This document shows, piece after piece, positions 5,311 through 60,814 of a stretch of DNA of 64,000 bases. A model generated the notes under the pieces. It was not told where the DNA came from and did not search any database. It was given only the letters and a program-made list of their open reading frames with translations. Origin of the DNA: Gemmatimonadetes bacterium 13_1_40CM_69_22 (GTDB taxonomy: Bacteria > Gemmatimonadota > Gemmatimonadetes > Gemmatimonadales > GWC2-71-9); assembly GCA_001917665.1 (NCBI GenBank), contig MNEL01000027.1, forward strand, positions 18,866-82,865, in the 5' to 3' direction. Numbering within the stretch: the first letter of the stretch is position 1; each line of letters opens with the position of its first letter. Both the position numbers and the translations under genes were made by a program.

Positions 5311-6563
5311 ACCGGGACCGCGAGCCGCGCCCGCAGGCGCGCGGTGAGGGTGGGGCCGAGGTAGAGGTTGGCCACCCGGTCGTCGAACACGAGCTCGCGC
5401 ACGGTGCCCGAGACCTGGACCTTGCCCTCGAACATGATGTAGGCGCGATCCACGATATCCAGCGTTTGCTCCACGTTGTGGTCCGTGATCAGCACGCCGA
5501 TGCCGCGATGGCGGAGCCCGGCCACGATCGTCTGGATATCGTGTACAGCGATCGGATCCACCCCGGCGAACGGCTCGTCCAACAGCATGAATTTAGGCTG
5601 GGTGACGAGCGCACGCGTGATCTCGAGCCGGCGGCGCTCGCCGCCCGACAGCTGATAGCCCTTTTGGCGCCGCAGGTGCCGGATGGCGAGCTCGTCGAGC
5701 AGGTGATCGAGGCGCTGCCCCAGCTCTGCGTCGTCGAGCGGCAAGGTCTCGAGGATCGCCCGGACGTTGTCCTCCACGGTGAGCTTGCGGAACACCGACG
5801 GCTCCTGGGCGAGGTAGCCGATCCCCGCCCGGGCCCGCTGGTACATCGGCTCGGCGGTGACGTCGCGCCCGTCGAGCGCGATGCGGCCGCGGTCGGGCCG
5901 GATCAGCCCCGTGATCATGTAGAACGTGGTGGTCTTCCCCGCTCCGTTGGGGCCGAGCAGGCCGACGATCTCGCCCTGCTCGAGCCGCACGCTCACGTCG
6001 TTCACCACACGGCGGCCCTTATAGCTCTTCGCCAGCCCGGTCGCCTCGAGCAGGCTCCCGCCGGCGACGCGCGGGTAGGCGCCACTGGGCGACTCCGCCC
6101 GGGTGAGCGCGCGCTCGGCTGCCTCGAGCAGCTGGTCGGCCGCGCCGGGCGCCATCTGGAGCTCCTCCCACGCCTCCCGCGTGAACGCGACCAGGGCGTC
6201 GTCCGCGAGCAGGCCGTTCGGGTACCGCACCACCTTCGCCACGACGAGCCGCGGCAGCACCGAGGTGCGGAGACTGGTGCGGAACTCCTCGACCGACAGA
6301 CCGCCCAGCTCCGGGAGGTTCGCGCTGCGCGCGTGAATCCGCAGCTTCAGGAACTCCTCCCGATAGGCGATCGCCAGCTCGCCGAACGTGGTGCGTCCCT
6401 GCCCATCCGCCACGCGGGCGAGCGCCGCCGCGGCGAGCGGCAGTGAGGAATCCCGCTGCGCCAGCAGGTCGGGGATCCGCTGGGAGATCACGGGGGGCAC
6501 CGGGAACCCTGGGGGCGCGGGCGGCACGGGGGGCACGGGGGGCACTGCGGGGGGCGTGGTCAT
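5307..6563 (-). CDS. lptB: LPS export ABC transporter ATP-binding protein LptB carrying a ~175-aa N-terminal extension
   Basis: The C-terminal 240 aa align by eye with E. coli LptB ([53 protein letters not shown]). The in-frame upstream region is stop-free back to ATG 6563, which forms ATGA with the stop of the upstream gene. The nearest alternative in-frame start is ATG 6155. Confidence 0.85.
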
Positions 6564-7975
6564 CGATTCGATGGCTTCTTGGCGGCGCTGTCCGCCGGCG
6601 GCGGCTTGGGCGGCGCGGGCTCGAGGTGTACCCCGTCGGCGCGGCCGCTCACGACGATGCGGTCGACCTTGCCCGCCTTGAGGGCGATATCGATCATCTG
6701 GCCGCGCGAGTAGTCGATGGCGGGGCCGAGCGCTGCGGCGGAGTCCTTCGCGCTGCTGTAGATGTGGCTGAGCGAGCGGGCGGCGCCACGCGCCACGATC
6801 TGGTGCAGCTCGCTCTTCGTCTTGCCACCCGTGTCCGCCAACTGCGTCCAGTGGGCGGTGAGCGAGTCGCCCGCGATCCAGTCCACCGCCGCGGCCGCGG
6901 AAGCGTCCTTCTTCGACGTCGACAAGGCGTGGCGGAAGGCGCGAGCCTCGGTCAGCACCTCGTCCGGCGTGTCGAGCGCGAGCGAGTCGGCCTCGATCGT
7001 ATTGAGAGTCGACACCGCTTTCGCGCGGGTCGAGTCGCGTCCCCCCCTGTCCGCCCCGCCCCCTTTGTCCGCCTTGTCCCCCTTGTCCCCCTTGTCCCCC
7101 TTCCCTCCCCCGCCGCCCCCGCTCCAGGCGAACGCGTGCTGCAGCTTGCGGCGGTCCAGGGCGAGGTGAATCGTGTCGGCCGTGAGGCGCCAGTCGGTGC
7201 CGGTGGCGACGCCCTGCCCCAGCGCTTTGACGAGGCGGATCTCGCGGTCGCGGAGACCGAGCTCGATGCGGGTTCCCGTCAGTGCATACGCGCGCGCCCC
7301 CTTTCCTTCCACGCGGGGTCGACCCACCAGGACGGCGAACCCCGCGCCCTGATCGAGCTGCATCGAATCGCCGCGGGCGGCGAAGTCGCTCCGGTCGATC
7401 GTCACCTTCCCGCCGCCCCACATCCGGTCGTTCCCCTTGAAACGCACGCGGTCCCCTACGATGATGTACGGCTCGCCCGAGTCGGCGTTCGACCGGTAGT
7501 CGATCGTGGGGCGTCCGGAGGCGTACATCTCGAGGGTATCGCGGACGCCTTTCAGGGCCCGGTAGTAGGTGAGGTTCGGGCCGCGCAGCACCGATCCGGT
7601 GATGCGATTCACCGCGACCACGTTCTTGTGCGCCTCGAGCCGCTCCTGGTGCAGGAAATACGAGGCATTCACGGCGTCCAGGGTGAGGGTCGTGTCGCGG
7701 ATGTGCACGAGGTGCCGCTGCCCGATCATGTCGAACCGCCCGATTCCGGCGAACCACGCCACGCTGTCGGCGGACAAGGTGCTCCCCGTCCCCCGGCAAT
7801 GCGCCAAGACGCCACCGCCCGCGAACACGTTGGTCTCGCCCTTACGCACCTCGACCTGCTGCGCCCGTCCTCCAACCGAGTCGATATCCACGACGCAAGG
7901 ACGTCCCGCCGTGGTGTCCCCCGGCGAAGGGGCGGGTCGCTGGACCAACGCTAGGAGCAGGAGCGGGACGATCAT
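6560..7975 (-). CDS. Large periplasmic OstA/LptA-like protein (multiple OstA-like modules)
   Basis: 471 aa with a hydrophobic N-terminus ([11 protein letters not shown]). Repeated beta-strand-rich OstA-like modules are separated by a Gly/Lys/Asp linker. It occupies the position between lptC-like and lptB. Confidence 0.7.
7067..7102. repeat. 9-bp in-frame tandem repeat (3 perfect copies plus 1 degenerate) encoding (KGD)n in the LptA-like protein
   Basis: On the plus strand, GTCCCCCTT occurs 3 times at 7076-7102, preceded by GTCCGCCTT. It encodes ...[22 protein letters not shown]... on the minus strand. Confidence 0.85.
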
Positions 7976-22744: not shown

Positions 22745-23527
22745 CTACGACTTCGGTGCCGCAGGTTTGGCCGCGTAGATGAACTCGTAGTAGTCGCGCA
22801 TGGTCAGGTCCGCGGCTGCCTCCTTGTCGGCGATCACGATCGCATCACGGTGCAGCTGGATGGCACTTGCCGTCACCATGCTGGTGACCGGTCCCTCGAC
22901 GGCTTGGGCAATCGCCTTGGCCTTCGCCTTCCCGCTCGCAACCAGGACCAGCTTGCGCGCATCGAGGATGGTCCCGACGCCCATGGTGATCGCATAGACC
23001 GGCACACCCTCTCGGTGCTCGAAGAACCGGGCGTTGTCGTCGATGGTCTGTTTGGACAGCGTCTTGAGCCGCGTCCGCGAGCTCAGGGAGCTCCCCGGTT
23101 CGTTGAATGCGATGTGGCCGTCGGAGCCGATGCCCAGGATCTGCAGGTCGATACCGCCGCATTCCGCAATTCGCTCCTCGTACCATTGGCAGAAGGCGGG
23201 GTAGTTGCTGGTCGTGCCCGAGGGAATATTGATGTTGTGCCGCGGGATGTTCACGTGCTGGAAGAAGTGCTCGTGCATGAAGTAGTGGTAGCTCTGGGGG
23301 TGATTCACGGGCAGGCCGACATATTCGTCGAGGTTGAACGTCGTGACACGAGAGAAGTCGAGTTGCGCCTCTTTGTGCAGCCGCACCAACTCCTGATACA
23401 GGCCGAGTGGCGTGGACCCGGTCGCCATGCCGAGCACGGCATTCGGCTTGGTGTTGAGCACCTCTGCGACGATCTGCGCCGCGGTCTTGCTCATCTGCTC
23501 GTAGTCTCGCTGAATGATGACTTCCAT
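22745..23527 (-). CDS. nagB: Glucosamine-6-phosphate deaminase
   Basis: Start taken at MEVIIQRDYEQMS. Motifs: GMATGSTP...FNLDEYVGLP...GIGSDGHIAFNEPGS. Confidence 0.85.
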   Translation of the reverse strand: MEVIIQRDYEQMSKTAAQIVAEVLNTKPNAVLGMATGSTPLGLYQELVRLHKEAQLDFSRVTTFNLDEYVGLPVNHPQSYHYFMHEHFFQHVNIPRHNINIPSGTTSNYPAFCQWYEERIAECGGIDLQILGIGSDGHIAFNEPGSSLSSRTRLKTLSKQTIDDNARFFEHREGVPVYAITMGVGTILDARKLVLVASGKAKAKAIAQAVEGPVTSMVTASAIQLHRDAIVIADKEAAADLTMRDYYEFIYAAKPAAPKS

Positions 23528-36491: not shown

Positions 36492-36598
36492 CGAATGCGG
36501 AATGCGGAATGCGGAATGCGGAGTGTACGTGGGAGCGTCGGGAGGCGAGCGAACTTTCCCAGCAATTCCGCATTCCGCACTCCGCATTCCGCATTGCG
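36492..36598. repeat. Heptamer-built inverted-repeat element, copy 1 (fabD/fabG intercistronic)
   Basis: Left arm CGAATGCGGAATGCGGAATGCGGAATGCGGAGTG (36492-36525). Right arm ATTCCGCATTCCGCACTCCGCATTCCGCAT (36565-36594). The arms are about 30 nt and complementary, with ~2 mismatches and a ~40-nt loop. The right arm is identical to 58970-58999. Confidence 0.9.
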
Positions 36599-57577: not shown

Positions 57578-58858
57578 TCACGCCACCATCACGGGGCGCC
57601 GCCGGCCCGCGATGTAGTCTTCGAACTCGCTGCGGAACTTCTTGATGCCGGAGACGACGGGGGCAGCGCAGGAGTCCGAGAGCACGCAGATGGTCTTTCC
57701 CGTCATGTTCTCCGCGAGGTCGAGCAGCAGGTCGAGATCCGACGTTTTCCCCTGGCCCGCCAGGATCCGCTCGAGGATCTTCGTGGTCCACGCGGTCCCT
57801 TCGCGGCACTGGGTGCACTGGGCGCACGACTCGTGCGCGTAGAAGCGGGCGAGGCGCATGATCTGATAGACCAGGTCGGCGGAATCGTCGAACACGATCA
57901 CGCCACCCGAGCCCAGCATGGTGCCTTGCTCGACGGCCCCCTCGTAATCCAGCAGGCAGCTTTCCGTTTCGTCGCGGTTCAGAATCGGGACCGACGAGCC
58001 GCCCGGGATGCAGGCTTTCAGGGTGCGGCCCGGCTGCATCCCGCCGCACAGCTCGTACAGCAGGTCCTTGAGCGGGAAGCCCATCGTCACCTCGTAGTTG
58101 CCCGGCTTCTGGACCTGCCCGCACACCGAGAACAGCTTCGTGCCCGTGCTCTTCGGGTTGGAGAGGGACAGCTTCTTGTACCACGCCGGGCCGTTCGTGA
58201 GGATGGGCGGCACCGCGGCGAGCGTCTCGACGTTGTTGATCGTGGTCGGCAGGCCGAACACGCCGACGGCGGCGGGGAACGGCGGCTTGATCCGGGGGTT
58301 GCCGCGCTTTCCCTCGATCGAGTTCATCAGCGCGGTCTCTTCGCCGCAGATGTACGCGCCCGCGCCGCGGTGCAGGTGGATCTTGAGATCGCCGAACACG
58401 GCAGCGGCGCTCGCTTCGGCGAGCGCTTGCTCCATGATCGCATACGGCTCGGTGAACTCGCCCCGGATGTAGATGTAGCCGACCTCGGCCTGGATCGCCC
58501 GCATCGCGATCGCCGTGCCCTCGAGCAGCGCGTGCGGCGTCCAGCGCATGATCTCGCGGTCCTTGAACGTCCCTGGCTCGGACTCGTCCGCGTTCACGCA
58601 CAGGTAGTGCGGCTTTTTCTTCTCCTTGGGCATGAACGACCACTTGAGGCCCGTCGGGAAGCCGGCGCCACCGCGCCCGCGCAGCCCGGACTCCTTCACC
58701 GCTTCAGTGATGGCCGCGGGCGCCATCGTCTGCGCCTGCTTCCACGCCTCGTAGCCCCCGCGCTTCACCCAGCCCTTGTAGGTGCGCGCGTCCGGGTCGC
58801 CGAAGTACCTCGAGAGAACGGCGGTCTCTTTGGGATGCGGCTTGTGGGGGTAGCCCAT
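57578..58858 (-). CDS. nuoF: NADH-quinone oxidoreductase subunit F
   Basis: Start taken at MGYPHKPHPKE. Motifs: GLRGRGGAGFPTG.KW, NADESEPGTFKDR, ESCAQCTQCREG. The track's upstream 47 codons are a translation of the heptamer repeat element. Confidence 0.95.
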   Translation of the reverse strand: MGYPHKPHPKETAVLSRYFGDPDARTYKGWVKRGGYEAWKQAQTMAPAAITEAVKESGLRGRGGAGFPTGLKWSFMPKEKKKPHYLCVNADESEPGTFKDREIMRWTPHALLEGTAIAMRAIQAEVGYIYIRGEFTEPYAIMEQALAEASAAAVFGDLKIHLHRGAGAYICGEETALMNSIEGKRGNPRIKPPFPAAVGVFGLPTTINNVETLAAVPPILTNGPAWYKKLSLSNPKSTGTKLFSVCGQVQKPGNYEVTMGFPLKDLLYELCGGMQPGRTLKACIPGGSSVPILNRDETESCLLDYEGAVEQGTMLGSGGVIVFDDSADLVYQIMRLARFYAHESCAQCTQCREGTAWTTKILERILAGQGKTSDLDLLLDLAENMTGKTICVLSDSCAAPVVSGIKKFRSEFEDYIAGRRRPVMVA

Positions 58859-58880
58859 TACCGCCGCCCTTCCCCACCCC

Positions 58881-59000
58881 GAGTGCGGAGTGTGGAATGC
58901 GGAATGCGTAATTGAACGTCCAGGTTCGATCCCCCAAATCCGACGTCGGCCTCGACGCCTGCCCGATATATTCCGCATTCCGCACTCCGCATTCCGCATC
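58881..59000. repeat. Heptamer-built inverted-repeat element, copy 2 (nuoE/nuoF intercistronic)
   Basis: Left arm GAGTGCGGAGTGTGGAATGCGGAATGCG (58881-58908). Right arm ATTCCGCATTCCGCACTCCGCATTCCGCAT (58970-58999), identical to 36565-36594. The arms are complementary over ~21-25 nt, and the ~60-nt loop is unrelated to that of copy 1. Confidence 0.9.
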
Positions 59001-59006
59001 TGGTCT

Positions 59007-59528
59007 TCACTGGTACTTCCTCACGAGCTCCGCGACCTTCTCCGGGCGCACGCTCTCGATGAAGTCGTCGTTGATCAGCACCGGGGTCGCGAACCCGCAG
59101 GCACCCAGGCATTCCACCTCGATCACCGTCCACTTGCCGTCGGGGCTCGTGGCACCGAGCTCCTTCGCCCCGGTCGCCTCCAGCAGGGCCTTCACCACGT
59201 CCTCGGCCCCGCAGATGTTGCAGGGCGACGTCGTGCACACCTGCACGAAATGCGTTCCCACCGGGTGCTGATGATACATGGTGTAGAACGTCACCACCCC
59301 CTTGACGTAGGCGGGCGTGAGGCCGAGCAGCGCGGCCACCTCGGTCATGTCGCGGTCGGAGATCCAGCCGCGCTGCTGCTGCACCAGCCACAGCGCCGGC
59401 AAGAGCGCCCCCTGCTTCGTGGGGTAGCGGGCGAGGATCGCCTGCAGCTCGGCGAGGACCTTCCCGGTGAACACCGGCTGATACTCTTCCATCCCGGTCT
59501 CGTGGGCGGGGCGCGCGCTCACGCTCAT
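59007..59528 (-). CDS. nuoE: NADH-quinone oxidoreductase subunit E
   Basis: Start taken at [10 protein letters not shown] (ATGA with the nuoD stop). Motifs: ...VCTTSPCNICGAE...VECLGACGFAP-like 2Fe-2S motif. Confidence 0.95.
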   Translation of the reverse strand: MSVSARPAHETGMEEYQPVFTGKVLAELQAILARYPTKQGALLPALWLVQQQRGWISDRDMTEVAALLGLTPAYVKGVVTFYTMYHQHPVGTHFVQVCTTSPCNICGAEDVVKALLEATGAKELGATSPDGKWTVIEVECLGACGFATPVLINDDFIESVRPEKVAELVRKYQ

Positions 59529-60814
59529 CGGTCGACCTCCCCCATCACGATGTCCACTGACGCGTTGATGGCGATCAAGTCGGAGAGCAGGTGCCCTTCG
59601 GCCATCTTCGGCAGTGCCGCGAGGTTGATGAACGACGGCGGTCGGATACGCCAGCGCACCGGCTTGGCGGTGCCGTCGGAGACCAGATAGGTGCCCAGCT
59701 CGCCCTTGGGGTTCTCGATCCCGACGTACGCCTCGCCGACCGGCGCCTTCACCCCCTCCATCACCTGCTTGAAGTGATAGATCATCGCTTCCATATCGCT
59801 CATGGCGCGCGACTTGGGGGGCAGAATCAGGCGCGGGTCCGCCACGTTCAGCGGGCCGTCGGGGAGCCGCTCGAGCGCCTGCCGCAGGATGCGGTTCGAC
59901 TGGTGGCACTCCTCGAGGCGCACCAGGTAGCGGTCGTACACATCGCCGTGCTCGCCCACGGGGACATCGAACTCGTAACTGTCGTAGTCGAGGTACGGCC
60001 GGTCTTTGCGCACGTCGTACGGGACGCCACTGGCCCGCAGCATCGGTCCGGACAGGGAGTAGTTGATCGCTTCCTGCGCCGTCATCGCGCCCACGCCCTG
60101 GGTGCGGCCGACCCAGACGGCGTTGCGCGTCAGCACGCGGTCGATCTCGTGCAGCGTCTTCGGGTAGGTGTCGACGAACTGCCGCAACCCCGCGACGAAG
60201 TCGTCCGTCACGTCGGCCATCATGCCCCCGACCCGCGTCACGCTCGTCGTGAGCCGCGCTCCGGTCCACATCTCCTGCAGGTTGTAGATGCGCTCCCGCT
60301 CCTGGAAGGCCCACAAGAACGGCGTGAATGCGCCGAGGTCGATCGAGGTCGTGCCGAGCCACACCATGTGCGAGATGATGCGGCTCATCTCGCACGCGAT
60401 CACGCGCAGCACGGTGCAGCGTGGCGTGAGCTCGATCCCCATCAGTTGCTCTGCCGCGAGTGCGAACCCGACGTTGTTCGCCATGGGCGAGAGGTAGTCG
60501 GTGCGGTCGGTGAGCGGGATGATCTGATTGTAGTGGCGGTATTCCCCGAGTTTCTCGAACCCGGAGTGCAAGTAGCCGACGTGGGGGATGACGCGGACGA
60601 CGGTCTCGCCGTCGAGCTCGACGACGAGGCGCAGCACGCCGTGCGTGGCGGGGTGCTGCGGACCGAGGTTGAGCAGCATGTGCTCGCCACCGGCCTCGGG
60701 CTCACCGTGTCGCTCGGGCTCGCGTGCTGCGGCGGCGAGCGGGAGGCGCGCCGGTCGGCCCTGCGCGTCCAGCCCCGGCGTCGCAAGCGCGAGTTCGACG
60801 GTCCGCTTGGTCAT
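59525..60814 (-). CDS. nuoD: NADH-quinone oxidoreductase subunit D
   Basis: Start taken at MTKRTVEL (ATGA with the nuoC stop). Motifs: ...[16 protein letters not shown]...GYLH.G.EK... Confidence 0.95.

What the first reader, a model, noticed from the sequence alone, without database searches (positions are those of the whole stretch)
58881..59000. Second copy of the heptamer inverted-repeat element, splitting nuoE from nuoF
The nuoE/nuoF spacer is 148 nt, whereas most other nuo junctions overlap or are only a few nt (nuoA/nuoB is 31 nt). It contains GAGTGCGGAGTGTGGAATGCGGAATGCG ... ATTCCGCATTCCGCACTCCGCATTCCGCAT. The arms are shared with the fab-operon copy, but the ~60-nt loop is unrelated. 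The arms, not the loop, therefore look like the conserved functional unit. Finding the same element inserted into two unrelated, highly expressed operons argues for a mobile or selected intercistronic RNA/DNA module. The supplied longest ORFs starting MRNAECGMRN... are translation artefacts of this element.
Basis: seen in the sequence. Interest (0 to 1): 0.65.

Follow-up and report, generated by a model that had tools for sequence, protein, structure and literature searches.

The report
Heptamer-repeat hairpin inserted between nuoE and nuoF
The long gap between two respiratory-complex genes of a soil Gemmatimonadales bacterium holds a recently inserted, dispensable DNA hairpin whose two arms are short tandem runs of a 7-base unit, a poorly understood kind of bacterial repeat already known from cyanobacteria and here found in many other phyla.

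Summary
The 148-nt nuoE-nuoF spacer holds an inverted repeat at 58881-59000. Its arms are about four tandem heptamers, GCGGAAT-type then ATTCCGC-type, around a 57-nt loop. A second copy lies between fabD and fabG (36492-36597) and shares a 30-nt arm.

The element is a derived, dispensable insertion. Relatives with 90-94% identical NuoF have overlapping or abutting stop and start codons. Two other close relatives carry hairpins at the same junction built from different unit variants (GCGGAAC, GCGGATT), each complementary in both arms.

The same arm type occurs in more than 120 genome loci from many phyla and in 66 viral contigs. The G-rich arm always comes first (47 pairs to 0), and arms most often have four units.

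The two window loops are unrelated to each other, but each has a homologue at a different locus in another genome. The unit therefore behaves like a dispersed repeat as well as a simple-sequence repeat.

The closest known kind is the 7-bp-repeat (STRR) hairpin between hupS and hupL in cyanobacteria. I found no terminator, promoter, Rfam family or strand-specific RNA signature. The most likely reading is a tolerated, selfish or neutral palindromic repeat that forms a strong stem-loop in the nuo mRNA and carries its own ribosome-binding tail.

The parts
59007..59531 (-). nuoE (NADH dehydrogenase subunit E); stop codon TGA at 59009-59007
   Evidence: Pfam PF01257, E 2.7e-48; translation ends ...VRKYQ*
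59000..59006 (-). 7-nt linker (AGACCAG on the - strand) between the nuoE stop codon and the hairpin
   Evidence: Read from the sequence. In 9 related elements the 5' arm starts 0-9 nt after the upstream stop codon
58970..58999 (-). 5' arm on the mRNA: ATGCGGAATGCGGAGTGCGGAATGCGGAAT (4.3 heptamers). On the + strand it reads (ATTCCGC)4.3 and is identical to the right arm of copy 1
   Evidence: TRF period 7, 4.3 copies, 91% matches; inverted repeats I1-I3
58913..58969 (-). 57-nt loop with its own small internal stem. It is unrelated to the copy 1 loop, but collinear and of equal length with the loop of L037 (glmS|dtd, another Gemmatimonadales genome)
   Evidence: shuffle p about 0.005 against L037; p 0.35 against copy 1
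58881..58912 (-). 3' arm on the mRNA: ATTACGCATTCCGCATTCCACACTCCGCACTC. This is the more degenerate arm
   Evidence: TRF period 7, 4.1 copies, 81% matches; paired with the 5' arm in the minimum-energy fold
58859..58880 (-). G-rich tail GGGGTGGGGAAGGGCGGCGGTA between the hairpin and the nuoF ATG. It is a presumed Shine-Dalgarno region. Its last bases (GGTAATG) retain the ancestral stop/start overlap TAATG
   Evidence: Homologous tails TCGGGG..GGGGA..GTA(A/G)TG follow the hairpin in L274 and L275, and ATTCGGGGCAGCGGGGGGATG follows copy 1. The tail is absent from empty sites. The ribosome-binding role is inferred
57578..58858 (-). nuoF (NADH dehydrogenase subunit F), true start ATG at 58858
   Evidence: Pfam PF01512, PF10589, SLBB; the N-terminus MGYPHKPH is conserved in relatives
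36492..36597 (-). Copy 1 of the same element family, between the fabD stop codon (36601-36599) and the fabG ATG (36478): (GAATGCG)4.3, a 40-nt loop, then (ATTCCGC)4.4
   Evidence: Its loop is homologous to L022 (mutL|miaA), 85% over 101 nt

Best explanation
The spacer is one copy of a dispersed family of short palindromic repeats whose arms are simple-sequence arrays. About four tandem GCGGAAT units are followed by a variable loop and then about four ATTCCGC units. This is the heptanucleotide (STRR-type) hairpin known from cyanobacterial operons, here in a soil Gemmatimonadales bacterium.

Shown:
- It was inserted recently into a junction where the nuoE stop and the nuoF start ancestrally overlap (TAATG).
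- It is dispensable, because close relatives lack it.
- It evolves quickly. The unit variant and the loop turn over while the two arms of each element stay complementary.

Inferred:
- The element is co-transcribed with the nuo operon and folds into a stem-loop of about -64 kcal/mol.
- The fold loops out the inserted 120 nt, so the nuoE stop codon sits next to the G-rich ribosome-binding tail and the nuoF start. nuoF is still translated and the insertion is tolerated.
- Any effect on expression would be of the REP/BIME type: a barrier to 3' exonucleases or a double-strand RNase site that lets the nuoA-E and nuoF-N segments differ in stability.
- Arm complementarity is most simply kept by replication slippage within arms together with hairpin-templated correction between arms. 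Selection is not required.
- On balance it is a selfish or neutral repeat, not a dedicated regulator. How copies reach new loci is not known.
For: Anatomy and fold:
-.

Derived and dispensable:
- L273 (94% NuoF identity in the alignment) and L276 (92%) have a 1-nt stop/start overlap. L129 (90%) has TAA directly followed by ATG.
- L128, L130-L135 and L205 (57-74%) have gaps of -1 to 3 nt.

Same junction, different variants:
- L274 (94%) has a 148-nt spacer with GCGGAAC/GTTCCGC arms, including a matched GCGGAAG:CTTCCGC unit, folding at -73 kcal/mol.
- L275 (92%) has a 106-nt spacer with GCGGATT/AATCCGC arms, folding at -56 kcal/mol.
- Across 41 elements the two arms of one element match in unit variant more than arms of different elements do (0 of 5000 permutations).

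Simple-sequence behaviour:
- A relative has only a solo (AACGCGG)4.4 array as its whole fabD|fabG spacer.
- Period 7 dominates the perfect tandem arrays in the fetched loci.

Dispersal:
- Arm-plus-loop homologues lie at unrelated junctions in other genomes: L037 glmS|dtd, L022 mutL|miaA, L101 oxidase|transporter.
- The identical 28-mer ATTCCGCATTCCGCACTCCGCATTCCGC occurs in five elements from three Gemmatimonadales genomes and one related soil-metagenome contig.
- One copy is in frame inside an aminotransferase gene.
- The pattern occurs in 66 viral-contig stretches.

Context:
- Of 17 confidently called flanks, 16 are co-directional, 1 convergent and 0 divergent.
- The 5' arm starts 0-9 nt after the upstream stop codon.

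Precedent:
- 7-bp-repeat hairpins lie between hupS and hupL in cyanobacteria, with proposed roles in transcript stability or translational coupling (PMC2670836).
- Inverted GGGAATC pairs occur in Xanthomonas (PMC4692102).
Against: - No transcript data exist, so co-transcription, folding in vivo and any processing are inferred.
- The element has been kept, in different guises, at nuoE|nuoF in three close lineages. A fourth relative (L127) carries an octamer-armed hairpin at the same junction. That recurrence could mean selection rather than tolerance.
- The strict G-arm-first polarity (47 to 0) and the four-unit mode are not predicted by neutral slippage. They hint at a constraint or a trans-acting factor that I could not identify.
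- The NuoF tree does not make the element-bearing lineages a clade. A single insertion with losses and repeated insertion cannot be told apart.
- No target-site duplication could be shown.
Confidence: 0.6

Rival explanations
1. It is a selected intercistronic RNA module. The stem-loop is kept because it splits or stabilises the nuo mRNA, or decouples or couples translation at the nuoE/nuoF boundary, and so sets subunit stoichiometry.
For: - Hairpins are kept at the same junction in three close lineages, with arm changes that preserve pairing. An independent octamer-armed hairpin sits there in L127.
- The stem is long enough (about 26-28 bp) to be a double-strand RNase substrate.
- The element carries its own G-rich ribosome-binding tail.
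- The same roles were proposed for the cyanobacterial hupS-hupL hairpins (PMC2670836).
Against: - It is absent from the nearest relatives (90-94% NuoF) and from nearly all others.
- The same family sits at functionally unrelated junctions and once inside a coding sequence.
- Mismatches show no G-U preference on the transcribed strand (22 G-U against 32 A-C).
- Arm-to-arm agreement can arise without selection, through template-switch correction of quasi-palindromes (established knowledge, not tested here).
Confidence: 0.15
2. It is a true non-autonomous transposon (MITE- or REPIN-like). The heptamer arrays are terminal inverted repeats recognised by a transposase encoded elsewhere in the genome, and that enzyme inserted the whole unit at this site.
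For: - The arms have a fixed polarity relative to the element ends (47 to 0) and a fixed modal arm length of four units, as expected for transposase-binding ends.
- Filled and empty sites occur among close relatives.
- Subfamily-specific loops occur at unrelated loci.
- The identical 28-nt arm is found in five elements from three Gemmatimonadales genomes and one related soil-metagenome contig.
- One copy is an in-frame insertion in a gene.
Against: - No convincing target-site duplication: the flanks match at only 2-4 of 6 positions.
- The two copies in the window share no internal sequence.
- Many other, unrelated heptamers form the same kind of inverted pair, with the G-rich arm first in 7 pairs, the C-rich arm first in 1, and 2 ties. 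One sequence-specific enzyme would not explain that.
- Solo arrays are common, and unit variants change within one locus.
- The arms have no internal palindrome and no GTAG motif as REP sequences do.
Confidence: 0.15
3. It arose purely in place. A short G-rich, ribosome-binding-like heptamer at the junction expanded by slippage, and a fold-back or template switch generated the inverted arm. No sequence moved between loci.
For: - A solo (AACGCGG)4.4 array makes up a relative's fabD|fabG spacer.
- Short ribosome-binding-like heptamer arrays lie at nuoF|nuoG in L274 and L275.
- Unit variants are lineage-specific.
- Heptamers are the dominant long simple-sequence repeat (literature cited in PMC4679880).
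Against: - The ancestral nuoE|nuoF junction has no spacer to expand.
- The 57-nt loop has no source elsewhere in the window, but it does have a collinear homologue at glmS|dtd in another genome.
- Identical 28-30-nt arms carrying the same internal variant occur at unlinked loci.
Confidence: 0.07
4. It works at the DNA level or as a transcription stop: a cruciform or protein-binding site, or an intrinsic or factor-dependent terminator or attenuator inside the operon.
For: - Both DNA strands fold strongly.
- The element is symmetric with respect to strand, and its mismatches show no preference for the RNA strand.
Against: - No T-run follows the stem, and the scan finds no terminator-like or promoter-like site.
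- A terminator between nuoE and nuoF, or between fabD and fabG, would cut off essential downstream genes.
- No binding protein is known.
Confidence: 0.03

Closest known systems
[quoted passage not shown]
   Same: - Tandem 7-bp units arranged so that they can form a hairpin.
- Located between two co-transcribed subunit genes of a redox enzyme.
- Many dispersed copies in intergenic regions.
- Function unknown; transcript stability or translational coupling has been proposed.
   Different: - A different phylum (Gemmatimonadota, plus many others in the genome scan) and a different unit (GCGGAAT rather than CCCCAGT-type units).
- This work adds evidence for recent insertion, filled and empty sites among close relatives, joint change of both arms, strict G-arm-first polarity and a four-unit mode. 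I did not find these points in the papers read.
Heptameric simple-sequence repeats of Xanthomonas (GGGAATC) and Nostoc (GGGGATT) (PMC4692102), Geobacter (four tandem GGGACCG, PMC2700814) and Beggiatoaceae (TAACTGA, PMC4679880)
   Same: - Intergenic heptamer arrays, often of about four units.
- Some form convergent inverted pairs able to make stem-loops (Xanthomonas).
- One Nostoc array lies between the operon genes pecE and pecF.
- Length and sequence vary between close relatives.
   Different: - Those repeats are mostly solo direct arrays, and G-quadruplex or translational roles were proposed for them.
- Here the unit cannot form a quadruplex, and the paired arm-loop-arm form is frequent (39 pairs in the 120 loci of the genome scan plus the window).
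REP/BIME elements and REPINs of proteobacteria
   Same: - Short extragenic palindromic repeats, often between co-directional or convergent genes and co-transcribed.
- REPINs are inverted doublets with a less conserved spacer that form long hairpins.
- They are known to stabilise upstream mRNA segments.
   Different: - REP units are imperfect palindromes with a conserved 5' GTAG and are linked to RAYT transposases.
- Here the arms are tandem heptamers without an internal palindrome, and no associated gene is known.
MITEs (e.g. Correia elements)
   Same: - Size of about 100-150 bp.
- Inverted ends, a hairpin in transcripts, and insertion into operons.
- Presence/absence polymorphism.
   Different: - No target duplication could be shown.
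- The internal sequence is not shared between copies in one genome.
- The ends are simple-sequence arrays whose unit changes between lineages.

Membership tests
Heptanucleotide simple-sequence repeat / STRR-type hairpin | Tandem head-to-tail copies of a 7-nt unit (three or more) | tested here: met
   TRF period 7: 4.1 and 4.3 copies in copy 2, and 4.3 and 4.4 copies in copy 1
Heptanucleotide simple-sequence repeat / STRR-type hairpin | Intergenic location, including between co-transcribed genes | tested here: met
   nuoE|nuoF and fabD|fabG. Of 17 confidently called contexts, 16 are co-directional
Heptanucleotide simple-sequence repeat / STRR-type hairpin | Two arrays in inverted (convergent) orientation able to pair | tested here: met
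   Inverted repeat I2 is 92% complementary over 25 nt. The RNA fold is -64.3 kcal/mol, z -3.6
Heptanucleotide simple-sequence repeat / STRR-type hairpin | Copy number and unit sequence vary between close relatives | tested here: met
   AAT, AAC and ATT variants, different unit counts, or absence at the same junction
REP / REPIN | Each repeat unit is an imperfect palindrome with a conserved 5' GT(A/G)G | tested here: not met
   The arms are direct heptamer arrays with no internal dyad and no GTAG
REP / REPIN | Inverted doublet with a less conserved spacer that forms a long hairpin | tested here: met
REP / REPIN | A RAYT (Y1 transposase) gene flanked by the repeats in the same genome | not testable with these tools
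   Only a 64-kb window and short metagenome contigs of the source organism are available
MITE | Terminal inverted repeats | tested here: met
   28-31-nt arms
MITE | Target-site duplication flanking the element | tested here: inconclusive
   In the filled-against-empty comparison, the candidate CGGTAA duplication matches at only 2-4 of 6 positions in the three filled sites
MITE | Copies within a genome share the internal sequence | tested here: not met
   The two window copies have unrelated loops (p 0.35). Loop homologues exist only in other genomes
Intrinsic (Rho-independent) terminator | A GC-rich stem with a short loop, followed by a U-run | tested here: not met
   0 terminator-like sites in 58600-59300. 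The stem is followed by GGGGUGGGG
Any curated Rfam RNA family | A score at or above the family's gathering threshold | tested here: not met
   No hit in the whole window. In E-value mode only generic microRNA-precursor hairpins appear, far below threshold
Intercistronic RNase III processing hairpin | A double-stranded RNA stem of about 20 bp or more within a polycistronic transcript | tested here: met
   The predicted stem has about 26-28 pairs with a few interruptions. This is a prediction only
Intercistronic RNase III processing hairpin | Demonstrated cleavage in the stem | not testable with these tools
   No transcript data are available

The most novel reading that the evidence does not exclude
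The hairpin of (GCGGAAT)4, a loop and (ATTCCGC)4 could be the cis element of an unrecognised system that is widespread across phyla. In this reading a trans-acting protein or enzyme reads a duplex or hairpin with 7-bp periodicity. That factor would impose the four-unit length and the strict G-arm-first polarity, copy the module into operon junctions just after stop codons, and keep the arms matched. If so, the long-noted excess of heptamer repeats in bacteria would have a dedicated machinery and a function, rather than being polymerase slippage.
Probability: 0.1. Interest if true: 0.8.

Novelty: new member of a known kind. Interest (0 to 1): 0.4.

Why it matters
Heptamer repeats have been known as the commonest long simple-sequence repeat in many bacteria since 1990-2007, and their origin and role remain unexplained. 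This locus offers a clean natural series for study. At one operon junction in organisms with 90-95% identical proteins there are empty sites and three hairpins built from different unit variants. A second junction (fabD|fabG) adds a solo array in a close relative.

Four regularities across phyla came out of the follow-up, and each is a concrete hypothesis that can be tested in complete genomes and reporter constructs:
- The G-rich arm always comes first.
- Arms most often have four units.
- The element starts immediately after the upstream stop codon.
- Divergent promoter regions are avoided.

There is also a practical point for annotation. These elements are stop-free in some frames, so gene callers produce false N-terminal extensions (MRNAECG..., IPHSAFRIPH...) on real proteins. 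Several FabG database entries show this.

Tried and rejected
- RNA-strand signature. I counted G-U against A-C mismatches in the stems relative to the inferred direction of transcription. The count was 22 against 32, so there is no support for RNA-level selection. The counts are dominated by a few homogenised arms.
- Rho-avoidance as the reason for the polarity. The idea was that the C-rich arm is never exposed as a single strand. Solo arrays in co-directional contexts put the G-rich strand on the mRNA 30 times and the C-rich strand 18 times, which is not significant. It stays as speculation only.
- First gene-direction heuristic. It failed on the known cases. I recalibrated it on nuoF and replaced it.
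- Target-site duplication. It is not demonstrable from the filled and empty sites.
- tRNA-like loop. The loop contains GGTTCGATCC, but ARAGORN finds no tRNA or tmRNA in the window.
- Rfam. There is nothing at gathering thresholds, and only generic hairpin hits in E-value mode.
- Promoter or terminator inside the spacer. None was found.
- Local origin of the loops. No source sequence exists in the window.
- Third copy in the window. The weak matches at 23158 and 30678 are chance hits inside coding sequence.
- Genome-wide homogenisation of the unit variant. The signal is only weak (within-genome difference 0.27 against 0.40 between genomes, p about 0.05). It is contradicted by L279, which has two elements with different variants 2.4 kb apart.
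- Literature search for the exact arm sequence. There were 0 papers.
- 9-mer arrays at 6489-6545 and 7042-7119. They are coding low-complexity repeats, not an element.

Full report
**What is there**

On the + strand, a left arm of about four heptamers (TGCGGAA-type, 58881-58912) is followed by a 57-nt loop and a right arm of 4.3 ATTCCGC units (58970-58999).

The flanking genes are on the - strand. Pfam identifies them as nuoE (2Fe-2S thioredoxin-like) and nuoF (51-kDa FMN-binding subunit). nuoE stops at 59009-59007 and nuoF starts at 58858, so the spacer is 148 nt. The other nuo junctions overlap by 4 nt or are 1, 13 or 31 nt long.

The motif is far above chance: 16 matches against 3.5 +/- 1.9 in shuffles, 14 of them in the two elements. 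The transcribed strand folds at -64.3 kcal/mol (z -3.6). Copy 1, between fabD and fabG (36492-36597), folds at -76.1 kcal/mol (z -8.1).

The two copies share an identical 30-nt arm, but their loops are unrelated. The spacer is identical in six independent metagenome assemblies, so it is not an assembly artefact. NuoF homologues at 86-88% identity are named Gemmatimonadales by NCBI.

**It is a derived, dispensable insertion**

Among metagenome relatives, NuoF orthologues at 57-74% identity have nuoE/nuoF gaps of -1 to 3 nt. The closest relatives, with NuoF identities taken from the alignment, give a finer picture.

| Locus | NuoF identity | nuoE/nuoF junction |
|---|---|---|
| L273 | 94% | stop and start overlap by 1 nt (TAATG) |
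| L276 | 92% | stop and start overlap by 1 nt (TGATG) |
| L129 | 90% | TAA directly followed by ATG |
| L274 | 94% | 148-nt spacer, GCGGAAC/GTTCCGC arms, -73 kcal/mol |
| L275 | 92% | 106-nt spacer, GCGGATT/AATCCGC arms, -56 kcal/mol |

The L274 hairpin includes a matched GCGGAAG:CTTCCGC unit.

The three filled sites share several features:
- a NuoE C-terminus VRKY-x with a TGA stop;
- a G-rich tail after the hairpin (TCGGGG..GGGGA..GTA(A/G)TG);
- a relic of the ancestral stop codon immediately before the start codon.

These features suggest one ancestral insertion. The NuoF tree, however, does not make the three lineages a clade, so repeated insertion or loss cannot be excluded.

A more distant relative (L127, 80%) has a 279-nt spacer with an analogous hairpin built from octamers (CAGGCGGA / TCCGCCTG). 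Its G-rich arm again comes first, and it overlaps the end of nuoE.

Copy 1 is also derived. A relative with 90% identical FabG has a 34-nt fabD|fabG spacer that consists only of a solo (AACGCGG)4.4 array. Several FabG database entries carry false N-terminal extensions such as IPHSAFRIPH, SAFRVPRS and QSAIANPQSAI. These reveal hairpins with AAT, AAC and ATT variants at that junction in other lineages.

**A wide family with regular anatomy**

About two hits are my own estimate of the chance expectation. The hits come from Acidobacteriota, Verrucomicrobiota, Planctomycetota, Gemmatimonadota, Chloroflexota, Nitrospirota, Bacteroidota and others, including megabase contigs. The same scan found 66 stretches in viral contigs.

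Regularities in these loci:
- In the genome loci and the window there are 39 inverted pairs within 150 nt. All have the G-type arm first and none has the opposite order. Eight more pairs in viral and close-relative loci follow the same order, giving 47 to 0.
- Arm length peaks sharply at four units: the C arm has four units in 26 of 39 pairs and the G arm in 19 of 39.
- The same genomes hold many other heptamer arrays. Ten of these form inverted pairs. The G-rich arm comes first in seven, the C-rich arm in one, and two are ties.
- Period 7 dominates the perfect tandem arrays.
- Where flanking gene directions could be called with a heuristic calibrated on known genes, 16 contexts were co-directional, 1 convergent and 0 divergent.
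- In nine elements checked by eye, the 5' arm starts 0-9 nt after the upstream stop codon.

**Both a simple-sequence repeat and a dispersed repeat**

Simple-sequence features:
- solo arrays;
- changes in unit number and unit variant between close relatives;
- homogenisation within each arm.

Dispersed-repeat features:
- The copy 2 loop has the same length as, and is collinear with, the loop of an element between glmS and dtd in another Gemmatimonadales genome (L037; shuffle p about 0.005).
- The copy 1 loop matches an element between mutL and miaA (L022; p about 0.001).
- The identical 28-mer ATTCCGCATTCCGCACTCCGCATTCCGC, with its single variant unit in the same place, occurs in five elements at different loci, from three Gemmatimonadales genomes and one related soil-metagenome contig.
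- In a Verrucomicrobiota genome (L007) one element sits in frame inside a bioA-like aminotransferase gene.

Within each element the two arms agree in unit variant more than arms from different elements do (0 of 5000 permutations). One contig (L279) has two elements 2.4 kb apart with different variants. Matching therefore works per element, not per genome.

**What it probably does**

I found nothing that points to a dedicated function:
- The region has no terminator-like or promoter-like site.
- No Rfam family matches.
- No tRNA-like gene is present.
- Mismatches show no bias toward G-U on the transcribed strand.

The element is missing from the nearest relatives. The most economical reading is a tolerated palindromic insertion. 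By inference, the stem loops out the inserted sequence and brings the nuoE stop codon next to the G-rich tail and the nuoF start. The tail supplies the ribosome-binding site that used to lie inside nuoE. If the element has an effect, it would be the REP-like one: protection of the upstream segment from 3' exonucleases, or cleavage by a double-strand RNase.

Agreement between the arms can be kept without selection, by slippage together with template-switch correction of quasi-palindromes. That mechanism is established knowledge and was not tested here.

The polarity rule and the four-unit mode remain unexplained. My Rho-avoidance idea found no significant support in solo arrays (30 against 18).

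**Comparison with what is known**

The closest known kind is the cyanobacterial STRR hairpin. [quoted passage not shown] Their function is unknown, and roles in transcript stability or translational coupling have been proposed (PMC2670836).

Related reports:
- GGGAATC repeats in Xanthomonas, some as convergent inverted pairs, and GGGGATT between pecE and pecF in Nostoc (PMC4692102).
- Four-unit GGGACCG elements in Geobacter (PMC2700814).
- TAACTGA repeats in Beggiatoaceae, in a paper that also summarises the finding that heptamers are the most abundant long simple-sequence repeat (PMC4679880).

No paper in the searched library contains the arm sequence. I therefore file the element as a new member of a known kind. 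It fails the defining tests for REP sequences, for typical MITEs (no shared interior within one genome, no clear target duplication) and for intrinsic terminators.

**Verdict**

The loops, however, are not arbitrary, the arms are not fixed, and a selected regulatory role is not supported. Interest is moderate. The locus itself is ordinary for this class of repeat. The comparative series and the cross-phylum regularities make an old unexplained phenomenon easier to test.

Noticed in passing
L127:2185-2440: A relative with 80% identical NuoF has a 279-nt nuoE-nuoF spacer. It holds an analogous hairpin whose arms are tandem octamers (CAGGCGGA x3, then TCCGCCTG x about 7). The G-rich arm comes first, and the left arm overlaps the last codons of nuoE.
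   Followed up: partly
L007:4249-4324: In a Pedosphaera (Verrucomicrobiota) genome a GCGGAAT/ACTCCGC hairpin lies in frame, without stop codons, inside a bioA-like aminotransferase gene. It adds about 25 residues (SAECGMRSAESKRAAIPHSALRTPQ) between conserved segments.
   Followed up: partly
L277:9967-10000: In a relative with 90% identical FabG the entire 34-nt fabD-fabG spacer is a solo array (AACGCGG)4.4. It runs from the stop codon to the fabG ATG, with no loop and no complementary arm.
   Followed up: partly
L279:607-718 and L279:3008-3108: One soil contig carries two heptamer hairpins 2.4 kb apart, at fabD|fabG and after fabF. They use different unit variants (GTTCCGC and ATTCCGC). The second has the same 28-nt arm as both window copies.
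   Followed up: partly
L274:2471-2494 and L275:2484-2506: The short nuoF-nuoG spacers of two close relatives consist of small arrays of purine-rich, ribosome-binding-like heptamers: (TGAGGGC)3.4 and (GGGGAAG)3.3.
   Followed up: no
P0131, P0135, P0152, P0154, P0159, P0167, P0218 (FabG homologues): These database FabG proteins are 20-50 residues too long at the N-terminus because gene callers read through an upstream heptamer hairpin. The extensions contain peptides such as MRNAE..., IPHSAFRIPH and SAFRVPRS.
   Followed up: partly
L107:2184-2260: In a Saprospiraceae genome the C-rich arm, (ATTCCGC)6, directly abuts what looks like the 3' end of a tRNA gene on the opposite strand (GGAGAGACAGGGATTCGAACCC).
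   Followed up: no
genome loci L001-L120: In C-type arms the pattern ATTCCGC followed by three ACTCCGC units (loop-proximal unit different) occurs 15 times. The mirror pattern is absent from the 25 commonest patterns listed. This suggests directional growth or homogenisation of the arrays.
   Followed up: no
window:6489-6545 and 7042-7119: Two 9-nt tandem arrays (CACGGGGGG and CCCCCTTGT) look like an inverted pair. They are in fact coding low-complexity repeats: a Pro/Val-rich N-terminus of an ABC ATPase and a GDK-rich stretch of the neighbouring protein.
   Followed up: yes
window:8531-8617: A 13-nt tandem repeat (CGTGACGTCTCTG, 6.7 copies, 86% matches) was reported by Tandem Repeats Finder. 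I did not examine it.
   Followed up: no
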